Below are positions 21,347 through 22,296 of a stretch of 64,000 bases of DNA, one piece after another (position 1 is the stretch's first letter; every line of letters begins with the position of its first letter). Origin of the DNA: the human T2T-CHM13v2.0 reference genome, Homo sapiens; assembly GCF_009914755.1 (NCBI RefSeq), contig NC_060935.1, one strand, 5' to 3'. The notes beneath the pieces were generated by a model that was given only the letters and a program-made list of their open reading frames with translations, did no database searches and was not told the DNA's origin. Both the position numbers and the translations under genes were made by a program.

Positions 21347-22296
21347 CAATCAGCCCTCAGTATTCATGAGTTCCATGTCTGTGGATTCAACCAACCAAAG
21401 ATTAAAAATACTCAGAAAAGGCTGGGGGTGATGGCGCATGCCTATAATCCCAGCACTTTGGGAGGCTGAGGCAGGCGGATCATGTGAGGTCAGGAGTTCA
21501 AGACCATCCTGGCCAACATGGTGAAACCCCATCTCTACTAAAAAAAAAAAAATACAAAAATTAGCTGAGTGTGGTGGCACATGCCAGTAGTCCCAGCTAC
21601 TCAGGAGGCTGAGGCAGGAGAATCACTTGAACCCACGAGGCAGAGGTTGCAGGGAGCCGAGATCACGCCATTGCACTCCAGCCTGGGTGACGGAGTGAGA
21701 CTGTGTCTTAAAAAAAAAAGAGAGAGAGAAACATCACATATATGCACTTAATGTGGCACCCGCACACATTTATTTTTATTAAGCCACCTCACTTTTGTTG
21801 AGATAAGAAAGATTTTATGAATCCCCTATAGATGCAAGTAGTGTACTTGCAATGTAACAATGGTTATGAGCTCAGCCTCTGCAGCCACACTGCTTGGGTT
21901 GGCCTCCAGGTTCTGCCATTTGCTAGCTGTGTGGTATTGGGCAAGTTACTTAACATCTCTGTGCCTCAGTTTCTATATCTATAAATAGCAGTGATCTCAA
22001 AAAAACCTCAGAAAAAAATTGCGTCTGTATTGAATATGTACAGACCTTTTTTTCTTATAATTCCCTAAACAGTACAGTATAGCAGCTGTTAGCATTTACA
22101 TTATAGTAGGTATTGTAAGTAATTTAGAGATGGTTTAAAGTGTATGGGAGGATGTGCATGGGTAATAAGCAAATGCTATGCCATTTTCTATCAAGGACTT
22201 GAACATGTATGGGTTTTGGTATCCCGATGGGTGGGGGTGGGGGTGGGGTGGGGTGGATCCTGGAATCATTTCCCCACAGATACCAAGGGACAACTG
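21347..22296 (+). mobile_element. MER2 DNA transposon split by an insertion of about 580 bp
   Basis: Left arm 21347-21419 (CA.TC.GCCCTC.GTAT...GGATTCAACCAACC) and right arm about 22001-22296 (ends GATACC.AGGGAC.ACTG); TA on both outer flanks. Confidence 0.85.

What the first reader, a model, noticed from the sequence alone, without database searches (positions are those of the whole stretch)
21404..22015. Candidate Alu 3' transduction: Alu, unique flank and MIR inserted as one unit into a MER2
Seen: the MER2 is broken at its internal A-rich site. The insert starts exactly at the Alu 5' end (21420), runs through the Alu tail (about 21719), and continues through about 280 bp of non-Alu DNA that includes a MIR fragment (21852-21987). 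It ends with TATAAA (21980-21985), a short A run and a second copy of the target: AAAAATACTCAGAAAA at 21404-21419 versus AAAAACCTCAGAAAA at 22001-22015, beside a TT|AAAA L1-endonuclease site. No TSD copy follows the Alu tail itself. Known: MIR activity predates MER2, so MIR could not have jumped into MER2 directly, and Alu 3' transductions are considered very rare and are disputed. Inference: a read-through Alu transcript was retrotransposed with its flank, which would tag the source Alu locus. Caveat: T4-T5 runs in the flank should stop Pol III, so a Pol II transcript starting or truncated at the Alu is an alternative.
Basis: partly seen in the sequence, partly recalled or inferred. Interest (0 to 1): 0.8.

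Follow-up and report, generated by a model that had tools for sequence, protein, structure and literature searches.

The report
Alu copied together with its flank
An Alu repeat and about 280 bases of the DNA beside it were copied as one piece from a site 180 kb away into an old DNA transposon in CUL5 intron 1; such copies are rarely documented, and here the source locus can be named.

Summary
A MER2-like DNA transposon (21347-22296, TA on both sides) is split by a 580-bp insert (21420-21999). A 16-bp duplication of the transposon's own sequence flanks the insert, and the insertion point is the element's only TT|AAAA site.

The non-Alu part has one paralog in the T2T genome, at chr11:107,845,205-107,845,775 on the minus strand, 179.6 kb upstream. 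There the same flank follows an Alu with a tail of the same length (22 vs 23 nt) and the same tail/flank junction, and the MIR runs on past the point where the copy stops. So Alu, flank and the MIR 5' part arrived in one step from that locus, roughly 20-40 Myr ago.

The mechanism is not settled. For an L1-type RNA copy: the duplication, the TT|AAAA site, and a start on the Alu's first base. Against a simple Pol III read-through: three T4-T5 runs shared by both copies, and no A tail at the new 3' end. TATAAA is probably a later mutation, since the source has TGTAAA.

My odds:
- Alu-initiated read-through: 0.4
- Pol II intron fragment: 0.3
- DNA-level template switch: 0.2

The 180-kb distance is unexplained.

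The parts
21345..21346 (.). TA flanking the left end of the MER2-like DNA transposon. Its partner TA is at 22297-22298.
   Evidence: Read. TA duplication is the rule for Tc1/mariner-type elements (established knowledge).
21347..21403 (+). MER2-like transposon, left arm up to the duplicated target.
   Evidence: The left arm aligns contiguously with the right arm in intact paralogs L013, L017 and L018.
21404..21419 (+). 5' copy of the 16-bp target-site duplication (AAAAATACTCAGAAAA), preceded by TT, so the site reads TT|AAAA.
   Evidence: (D5). It is the only TTAAAA in the rejoined element.
21420..21709 (+). Full-length dimeric Alu, AluS-like by recall. It starts at the first base of the Alu.
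   Evidence: 57 full-length Alu matches; alignment to those copies. It aligns to the source Alu at L002 2071->1789.
21710..21731 (+). Alu tail: A10 followed by GAGAGAGAGAAA, 22 nt in all.
   Evidence: The source tail is 23 nt of A/G with the same junction to the flank; 7 of 22 aligned sites differ, all transitions.
21732..21845 (+). Single-copy flank carried from the source. It holds T5 (21773-21777), T4 (21793-21796) and T4 (21813-21816).
   Evidence: only one other genomic match and none in the window; the T runs are identical in the source; 12 of 114 sites differ..
21846..21998 (+). 5' part of a MIR, carried from the source and cut off at the copy's 3' end.
   Evidence: 38 of 40 matches fall here; in the source the MIR runs on 37-39 nt further, judged by paralogs L004, L008 and L010.
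21980..21985 (+). TATAAA hexamer, 13 nt before the A run. It is probably derived after insertion.
   Evidence: The source has TGTAAA, and 4 of 5 aligned MIR paralogs have G at that position.
21999..22005 (+). A7 run at the 3' junction. Five or six of these A belong to the target copy, so at most 1-2 A of tail remain.
   Evidence: For comparison, Alus in the same window and the fetched loci keep A-rich tails of median 20 nt.
22000..22015 (+). 3' copy of the target-site duplication (AAAAAACCTCAGAAAA).
22016..22296 (+). MER2-like transposon, right arm.
   Evidence: 2201 first-look candidates in the genome; of the 40 scored, 39 are paralogs at 74-82% identity..

Best explanation
About 20-40 Myr ago an RNA was made from chr11:107,845,205-107,845,775 (minus strand, T2T). 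It began at the first base of an AluS-like element ("Alu B"), the start site of the Alu's own Pol III promoter. It ran through the Alu, its 23-nt A/G tail, about 115 nt of unique DNA and the first ~150 nt of a MIR.

The L1 endonuclease nicked the only TT|AAAA site of a MER2-like transposon in CUL5 intron 1. L1 reverse transcriptase copied this RNA there by target-primed reverse transcription, and a second nick 16 nt away produced the duplication. In other words, this is a true Alu 3' transduction.

Shown:
- one-step origin from that locus
- the duplication
- the TT|AAAA site
- the start on the Alu's first base

Inferred:
- an RNA intermediate
- Pol III as the polymerase
- read-through of one T5 and two T4 runs
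- priming at a 3' end with little or no A tail, either by internal priming or on a short oligo(A)

All RNA/L1-mediated routes together get about 0.7. This particular route gets 0.4.
For: (1): the flank (window 21720-21998) has exactly one other full-length genomic match, C11:107,845,205-107,845,474 on the minus strand, at 91% identity over query 8-276. This is among 40 scored of 391 candidates.

(2): window 21432-21995 aligns to the source as one block of 567 columns at 85.9% identity. The source has an Alu directly upstream, a tail of 23 nt against 22 nt, and the same ...AGAAACATCA junction.

(3): the MIR runs on in the source but is cut in the copy, so the direction of copying is source to window.

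(4): a 16-bp duplication of the transposon's own sequence.

(5): the insertion is at the single TTAAAA of the element. The background rate is 1.4e-3 per position.

(6): the copy begins GGC..., exactly at the Alu start. The GAG and the 21-A run that precede the source Alu are absent from the copy.

(7): window Alu and source Alu share only 2 non-CpG derived states but carry 15 and 13 private ones. The source Alu was therefore young when copied, as expected of a transcribed Alu.

(8) (Orioli 2011, passages): human Pol III shows some read-through even at T5 in vivo.

(9) (Noll et al. 2015, passages): L1 also inserts Pol III RNAs without A tails at TT/WAAAAWW sites. TT/AAAAATA fits that consensus.

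(10): no target copy follows the Alu tail, so the Alu did not insert on its own.
Against: - The T5 and both T4 runs are identical in source and copy, so the RNA had to pass three canonical Pol III terminators. In vitro, T5 allowed no read-through and T4 very little.
- The copy's 3' end lies at no T run. In the stretch of source read, no T4 follows for about 300 nt.
- There is no A-rich stretch in the source at the end point that would explain priming. Depending on gap penalties, the end is either ...GCAGTGAT plus an unexplained CTC, or ...CATCTCA after a 12-nt deletion.
- The Alu's own 22-nt tail should have been the preferred priming site.
- The Alu body gives no positive sign of descent from the source Alu. 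It ranks 12 of 56 by non-CpG distance, and shared derived states are at background: 2 against a mean of 2.29, and 6 against a mean of 5.95.
- A cytoplasmic Alu RNP should re-insert at random. A source within 179,645 bp has p = 1.2e-4.
- A systematic scan confirmed 0 of 118,489 AluY transductions, and that scan would reject a case with T4 inside the carried segment.
Confidence: 0.4

Rival explanations
1. Pol II intron fragment, a "class 1 templated sequence insertion". The source lies in the sense orientation inside a long intron of an SLC35F-family gene. A piece of that pre-mRNA was cleaved and polyadenylated at a cryptic site in the MIR (CA, 25 nt after the T(G/A)TAAA hexamer, with GGATTGTTGGG downstream) and was copied by L1 ORF2p in trans.

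The 5' end at the Alu start has two possible causes. Either the 21-A tract just upstream of Alu B paired with the A-rich target end, or the reverse transcriptase switched from Alu B's A-rich tail onto another Alu RNA (a chimeric retrocopy).
For: -: five SLC35F Pfam exons on the C11 minus strand at 107,810,145-107,823,121 (profile positions 2-281), so more 5' exons must lie at higher coordinates.
- the only CpG island in 107,823,001-107,873,000 is at 107,865,301-107,866,401. The source therefore sits between the likely promoter and the first domain exon, on the same strand.
- (Onozawa & Aplan 2016, passages): polyadenylated intronic fragments are inserted by ORF2p with a duplication, a cryptic signal 10-30 nt upstream of the tail, and a TTTT/A site.
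- This route needs no Pol III read-through.
- the Alu body could equally come from another Alu of that time.
- A nuclear, nascent RNA might make a nearby insertion less surprising.
Against: - No poly(A): at most 2 A beyond the duplication. Class 1 insertions carry 10-40 A, and at most 1 of 57 Alus of similar or greater age here lacks an A-rich tail.
- The hexamer in the source is TGTAAA, the ancestral MIR state.
- A 5' end exactly at the Alu start is a coincidence unless the GAG before Alu B is a later change.
- The tail lengths of 22 and 23 nt argue against a template switch inside the tail.
- No A>G excess in the window Alu (1 of 15 private changes), so there is no trace of editing of a pre-mRNA Alu pair.
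- The gene name and its extent are recalled, not annotated here.
Confidence: 0.3
2. DNA-level copy with no RNA. Replication-fork template switching or gap filling inside a TIR transposon (the "Pack-TIR" route) copied 580 bp from 180 kb away in inverted orientation and returned 16 nt upstream of the point of departure, which produced the duplication.
For: -: source and copy are 179,645 bp apart on one chromosome (p = 1.2e-4 under random insertion).
- There is no A tail.
- (Tan et al. 2021, passages): animal TIR elements capture nearby sequence without transposition. 59.8% of cases are intrachromosomal. 22 of the 33 human cases arose after DNA transposons had died. Microhomology has a median of 2 bp.
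- The junctions here allow 1 nt (right) and 0-4 nt (left) of microhomology.
Against: - The junction sits at the only TT|AAAA of the element and has a 16-bp duplication, both L1 endonuclease hallmarks.
- The transposon has no internal gap, whereas Pack-TIRs are described with gaps relative to the consensus.
- 56.9% of Pack-TIRs lie within 15 kb of the parent, so only about 3% are intrachromosomal and further away.
- The copy's ends coincide with an RNA start (Alu base 1), which a DNA switch does not predict.
- The locus is not in their human list. CUL5 and SLC35F2 have 0 occurrences in the 12 supplementary files held, and neither of the 2 chr11 rows in the human table (file 10) is at this locus.
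Confidence: 0.2
3. Two independent insertions, first the flank piece and then an Alu at its 5' edge, or two unrelated MER2 fragments that happen to lie side by side.
For: The only point in favour is that the Alu body is not measurably closer to the source Alu than to other Alus.
Against: - The source has the Alu at the identical junction with a tail of the same length.
- No second target copy follows the Alu tail.
- The arms are contiguous in intact paralogs and overlap by exactly 16 nt.
Confidence: 0.02

Closest known systems
L1 and SVA 3' transduction
   Same: A retroelement plus downstream unique DNA is copied as one RNA and inserted by L1, with one duplication around the whole unit. The carried DNA identifies the source element.
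   Different: Those elements are Pol II transcripts that skip a weak poly(A) signal and end in a poly(A) tail. Here the element is an Alu, the carried DNA contains Pol III stop signals, and no A tail is left.
Reported Alu-linked transductions: Kojima's retrotransposed Alu monomer with a short 3' flank, and AluSx3+WaluSat (Hoyt et al.), both as summarised in bioRxiv 10.1101/2024.04.29.591526 (read whole)
   Same: An Alu-derived unit with non-Alu DNA behind it, flanked by one duplication.
   Different: Here the Alu is a full-length dimeric, AluS-like element with about 270 nt of single-copy and MIR DNA and an identified single-copy source. That preprint confirmed 0 of 118,489 AluY cases and did not examine AluS or AluJ. 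I did not read the Kojima or Hoyt papers themselves.
Class 1 templated sequence insertions (Onozawa & Aplan 2016, PMC5110952, passages)
   Same: A non-repeat genomic fragment, often intronic, inserted at TTTT/A with a duplication by L1 ORF2p acting in trans.
   Different: The defining poly(A) of 10-40 nt is missing, the signal hexamer is not inherited from the source, and the fragment starts exactly at an Alu start.
Pack-TIR: DNA transposon copies with captured host DNA (Tan et al. 2021, PMC8277862, passages and supplement search)
   Same: A TIR element with a foreign internal segment whose parent lies on the same chromosome, formed long after the transposon family died.
   Different: The transposon has a duplication rather than a gap. 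The junction is at an L1 endonuclease site. The distance to the parent is 180 kb rather than under 15 kb. The captured piece starts at an Alu start.
Tailless retropseudogenes (Noll et al. 2015, PMC5322556, passages)
   Same: L1-mediated, duplication-flanked copies of mostly Pol III RNAs with no oligo(A). The target consensus is TT/WAAAAWW, which TT/AAAAATA fits.
   Different: In that class the RNA's last 2-18 nt are complementary to the target. Here the source sequence at either candidate end point matches the target poorly. The best case is a 5-of-6 match by eye, at a site 8 nt before the observed junction.

Membership tests
Alu 3' transduction by Pol III read-through (criteria of Halabian et al. 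2024) | A full-length Alu at the 5' end of the inserted unit | tested here: met
   The insert starts at Alu base 1 (21420) and aligns over the full length to 56 other Alus.
Alu 3' transduction by Pol III read-through (criteria of Halabian et al. 2024) | The target-site duplication encloses Alu plus extra DNA, with no duplication directly behind the Alu tail | tested here: met
   A 16-bp duplication at 21404-21419 and 22000-22015. No other match within 21420-22001.
Alu 3' transduction by Pol III read-through (criteria of Halabian et al. 2024) | A source locus with an Alu immediately upstream of the homologous flank, in the same orientation, with the alignment starting within 20 nt | tested here: met
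   a single paralog with the same tail/flank junction. Flank identity is 91%, just above their 90% cut-off. Subfamily identity could not be typed.
Alu 3' transduction by Pol III read-through (criteria of Halabian et al. 2024) | The first run of four or more T in the source lies downstream of the carried DNA, not inside it | tested here: not met
   T5 and two T4 runs lie inside the carried segment in both copies. None is at its end.
Alu 3' transduction by Pol III read-through (criteria of Halabian et al. 2024) | Offspring Alu demonstrably derived from the source Alu | tested here: inconclusive
   Rank 12 of 56 by non-CpG distance, with shared derived states at background. This is compatible with a source Alu that was young when copied.
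Class 1 templated sequence insertion (L1 ORF2p on a polyadenylated Pol II fragment) | A duplication of at least 5 bp and insertion at TTTT/A | tested here: met
Class 1 templated sequence insertion (L1 ORF2p on a polyadenylated Pol II fragment) | A non-templated poly(A) of 10-40 nt | tested here: not met
   At most 2 A beyond the duplication. Loss of the tail is uncommon locally: at most 1 of 57 Alus.
Class 1 templated sequence insertion (L1 ORF2p on a polyadenylated Pol II fragment) | A poly(A) signal 10-30 nt upstream of the tail, present in the donor | tested here: inconclusive
   TATAAA in the copy, TGTAAA in the donor, and G in 4 of 5 MIR paralogs. CA plus a GU-rich stretch is present if the 12-nt-deletion alignment is correct.
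Class 1 templated sequence insertion (L1 ORF2p on a polyadenylated Pol II fragment) | The donor is transcribed by Pol II in the sense orientation | tested here: inconclusive
   The donor lies between a CpG island and SLC35F exons on the same strand. No expression data or annotation was available.
Pack-TIR (DNA-level capture inside a TIR transposon) | TIR element on both sides of a segment that has a parental copy elsewhere | tested here: met
Pack-TIR (DNA-level capture inside a TIR transposon) | An internal gap in the transposon at the capture site, with microhomology at the breakpoints | tested here: not met
   There is no gap. A 16-bp duplication is present instead. Microhomology is 0-4 nt on the left and 1 nt on the right, read.
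Tailless retropseudogene | No oligo(A), a duplication, and a target of type TT/WAAAAWW | tested here: met
Tailless retropseudogene | The last 2-18 nt of the copied RNA are complementary to the target site | tested here: not met
   At both candidate end points the source sequence does not continue like the target. This comparison was made by eye.

The most novel reading that the evidence does not exclude
This is a genuine Pol III-initiated 3' transduction by a full-length dimeric Alu. About 270 nt of flank were carried through three canonical terminators, reverse transcription was primed without an A tail, and the copy re-inserted only 180 kb from its source. It would be the first source-resolved case for a dimeric Alu. 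It would name one Alu locus that was transcribed and retrotransposition-competent about 20-40 Myr ago. The short distance would also hint that Alu RNA can be used by L1 close to where it is made.
Probability: 0.35. Interest if true: 0.7.

Novelty: new member of a known kind. Interest (0 to 1): 0.55.

Why it matters
Alu source genes are almost impossible to trace, because new copies normally carry nothing from the parent locus. A copy that took its flank along names its parent.

The one systematic search I found, a 2024 preprint on 118,489 AluY elements in the same assembly, confirmed no such case. It left older subfamilies and Pol II co-transcripts open. This locus shows that at least one Alu-plus-flank copy with a resolvable source exists among older Alus.

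It also shows that a filter requiring no T4 inside the carried segment and an A tract at its end would miss this case.

The locus is a compact test case for three routes: leaky Pol III termination plus tailless priming, L1 acting on an intron fragment, and DNA-level capture inside a dead transposon. The 180-kb distance is the feature a specialist would find odd.

There is no sign of a function for CUL5.

Tried and rejected
(1) L1 3' transduction from an upstream L1. In 107,843,001-107,873,000, 0 of 99 stop-to-stop frames of at least 70 aa matched an L1 domain. The one weak hit, Atrophin-1, was below its cut-off. Short or very decayed L1 pieces would be missed.

(2) Parent-offspring signal in the Alu body. 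None was found. By my recall of the AluS consensus, about 7 of the 29 \"non-CpG\" differences fall on CpG sites that the local majority consensus had already lost. That would bring the distance close to that of the flank. This correction was not computed.

(3) A-to-I editing as a mark of an RNA stage. 1 of 15 private changes is A>G, so there is no signal.

(4) Exact 3' end of the copy. The alignment changes with gap penalties, so this is unresolved.

(5) Present-day Pol III expression of the source Alu. Searching 6 of the 7 supplementary files of Conti et al. 2015 found no occurrence of the gene name or of two coordinate prefixes, which I derived from recalled hg19 positions. One file was not searchable. 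This is weak evidence either way.

(6) Listing as a human Pack-TIR. The locus was not found.

(7) A second copy of the flank inside the window. None.

(8) A known bias of retrocopies toward their parent locus. One preprint (10.1101/2023.07.12.548661, passages) reports only a modest 3D-contact bias and says most retrocopies lie on other chromosomes.

Full report
**What is in the sequence**

Window 21347-22296 is a Tc1/mariner-type non-autonomous DNA transposon with TA on each side (21345-21346 and 22297-22298). I recognise it as MER2; no classifier was run. It is interrupted by 580 bp at 21420-21999.

The insert consists of:
- a full-length dimeric Alu (21420-21709)
- its tail, A10 followed by GAGAGAGAGAAA (21710-21731)
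- 114 nt of single-copy DNA (21732-21845)
- the first ~150 nt of a MIR (21846-21998)

The insert is followed by an A7 run (21999-22005) that merges into the second target copy. The two target copies are AAAAATACTCAGAAAA (21404-21419) and AAAAAACCTCAGAAAA (22000-22015). They match at 14 of 16 positions, and the left one is preceded by TT.

**The duplication is real**

I searched the genome with the right arm. There were 2201 first-look candidates and 40 scored matches, all but the self-match at 74-82% identity. I fetched 11 of these paralogs, L012-L022.

- Seven of the 11 also matched the left arm.
- In the two where both arms aligned right through the junction (L013, L017), the last 16 nt of the left arm and the first 16 nt of the right arm fall on the same 16 positions.
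- Both window copies read CTCAG where the three aligned paralogs read TTCAG, TT-AG or TCCAAG. So the duplicated stretch is this copy's own sequence.
- A 14-base pattern from the left copy, with up to 3 mismatches, hits only 21406 and 22002 between 21300 and 22100. Nothing follows the Alu tail.
- The insertion point is the only TTAAAA in the rejoined element. The motif occurs at 1.4e-3 per position in the window.

This rules out two independent MER2 fragments and an Alu that inserted by itself.

**The source**

The 279-nt non-Alu part (21720-21998) has no second copy in the window. In the whole T2T assembly, 40 of 391 candidates were scored. Only one of them besides the window itself covers the unique part: chr11:107,845,205-107,845,474 on the minus strand, 91% identity over query 8-276. 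The other 38 matches cover only query 135-279, which is the MIR.

Aligning the loci shows one block. Window 21432-21995 matches locus L002 2059->1501 at 85.9% identity over 567 columns. The source also has an Alu (\"Alu B\", L002 2071->1789) directly upstream. Its A/G tail is 23 nt against 22 nt in the window, and the tail/flank junction is identical.

Upstream of Alu B the source has GAG, a run of 21 A, and another Alu (\"Alu A\"). None of this is in the window. Downstream, the source MIR runs on for at least 37-39 nt beyond the copy's end, judged by three MIR paralogs.

The window copy is therefore the derived one and came in one step.

**Age**

The flank differs at 23 of 265 aligned sites (19 transitions, 4 transversions, 13 gap columns), giving a K2P distance of 0.094. 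With recalled neutral rates of about 1.2-2.2e-9 per site per year, this gives roughly 20-40 Myr.

The Alu bodies differ at 46 of 282 sites. Outside consensus CpGs they differ at 29 of 242, and at CpGs at 17 of 40.

**What the Alu body says**

I compared the window Alu with 56 other full-length Alus from the window and the fetched loci.
- It ranks the source Alu 12th of 56 by non-CpG distance.
- It shares 2 non-CpG derived states with the source Alu; the mean over the 55 others is 2.29, and 38 of the 55 share at least 2.
- It shares 6 CpG derived states; the mean is 5.95, and 31 of the 55 share at least 6.

So the Alu body gives no positive evidence of descent from Alu B. It does not contradict descent either. 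With 15 and 13 private non-CpG changes and about 2 shared, Alu B would simply have been young when copied. The case for one-step origin rests on the junction, the tail length and the single duplication.

**Which mechanism**

Three features point to L1: the 16-bp duplication, the TT|AAAA site, and ends that look like RNA ends. Four features are awkward.

(a) T5 (21773-21777) and two T4 runs (21793-21796, 21813-21816) are identical in source and copy. A Pol III transcript had to pass three terminators. Orioli et al. 2011 (passages) saw no read-through at T5 in vitro and very little at T4, but some leakiness at T5 in cells.

(b) There is almost no A tail, at most 2 A beyond the duplication. In the same window and loci, Alus keep A-rich tails of median 20 nt. 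Three of 57 scored 8 nt or less. Two of those three show long A runs displaced by a few bases, and the third abuts another Alu.

(c) The 3' end is ambiguous. It is either ...GCAGTGAT plus CTC, or ...CATCTCA after a 12-nt deletion, depending on gap penalties. TATAAA in the copy is TGTAAA in the source, and G is the state in 4 of 5 MIR paralogs, so the hexamer is probably a later change.

(d) Source and copy are 179,645 bp apart, p = 1.2e-4 for a random site.

**Context of the source**

Five exons matching the Pfam SLC35F profile (positions 2-281) lie on the minus strand at 107,810,145-107,823,121. The only CpG island in 107,823,001-107,873,000 is at 107,865,301-107,866,401. The source therefore probably lies, in the sense orientation, in a ~43-kb intron of that gene. 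I recall the gene as SLC35F2; this is not annotated here.

No L1 protein domain was found in 99 open frames of the 30 kb around and upstream of the source.

**Weighing**

An Alu-initiated Pol III read-through explains the exact start and the youth of Alu B. It also draws on by far the most abundant L1 template, and tail-less L1 copies of Pol III RNAs at TT/WAAAAWW sites are documented (Noll et al. 2015, passages). It is strained by points (a), (c) and (d).

A Pol II intron fragment, the class 1 templated sequence insertion of Onozawa & Aplan 2016 (passages), needs no read-through. It lacks the defining poly(A) and an inherited signal. It must explain the start either by microhomology with the 21-A tract or by a switch onto another Alu RNA.

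A DNA-level capture inside a dead TIR transposon, the Pack-TIR of Tan et al. 2021 (passages), explains the proximity and the missing tail. It predicts a gap in the transposon rather than a 16-bp duplication at the element's only endonuclease site. The locus is not in their human table.

My odds:
- Alu-initiated read-through: 0.4
- Pol II intron fragment: 0.3
- DNA-level capture: 0.2
- two-step insertion: 0.02
- something not considered: the remainder

**Comparison with the literature**

Two searches for Alu transduction found one dedicated study, bioRxiv 10.1101/2024.04.29.591526, which I read whole.
- It confirmed 0 of 118,489 full-length AluY transductions in this same assembly, and none in chimpanzee or macaque.
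- It cites one Alu-monomer case and the AluSx3+WaluSat composite.
- It states that cases from AluS/AluJ or from Pol II co-transcripts are not excluded.
- Its criteria would reject the present locus because T4 lies inside the carried segment.

I found no paper describing this locus. The searches that bear on that were made, plus the supplement searches.

**Verdict**

Alu-driven read-through is the leading reading but is unproven. It is a new, source-resolved member of a rare, known kind. Interest is moderate (0.55).

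Noticed in passing
L002 1760-2400 (minus strand), i.e. T2T chr11:107,845,464-107,846,104: At the source, Alu B appears to sit inside the A tail of an older Alu A. 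A possible 12-nt duplication (GAGAAACTTATC before Alu A, AAGAAAC--ATC after Alu B's tail) would enclose both. If so, the first bases of the carried flank are Alu A's 3' target copy. This was read by eye.
   Followed up: partly
window 21540-21552: The A-rich linker between the two Alu monomers is 13 A in the window copy and 5 A in the source Alu. The expansion could reflect polymerase slippage at or after copying.
   Followed up: no
window 22229-22257: A run of GGGGT/GGGT units (G-quadruplex-like) lies inside the right arm of the transposon. In some searches most paralog alignments stop just before it, near query position 224-226.
   Followed up: no
window 21420-21999 versus chr11:107,845,205-107,845,775: Source and copy lie 179,645 bp apart on the same chromosome in opposite orientation (p = 1.2e-4 for a random site). 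No explanation offered here accounts for this well.
   Followed up: partly
L027 2301-3401, i.e. chr11:107,865,301-107,866,401: The only CpG island in 50 kb upstream of the SLC35F-type exons is here. It is probably that gene's promoter.
   Followed up: partly
window 21720-21731: The Alu tail has turned into a short (GA)n microsatellite in the window copy, whereas the source tail is AAAAG/AAAC-like. All 7 differences in 22 aligned sites are A/G transitions.
   Followed up: no
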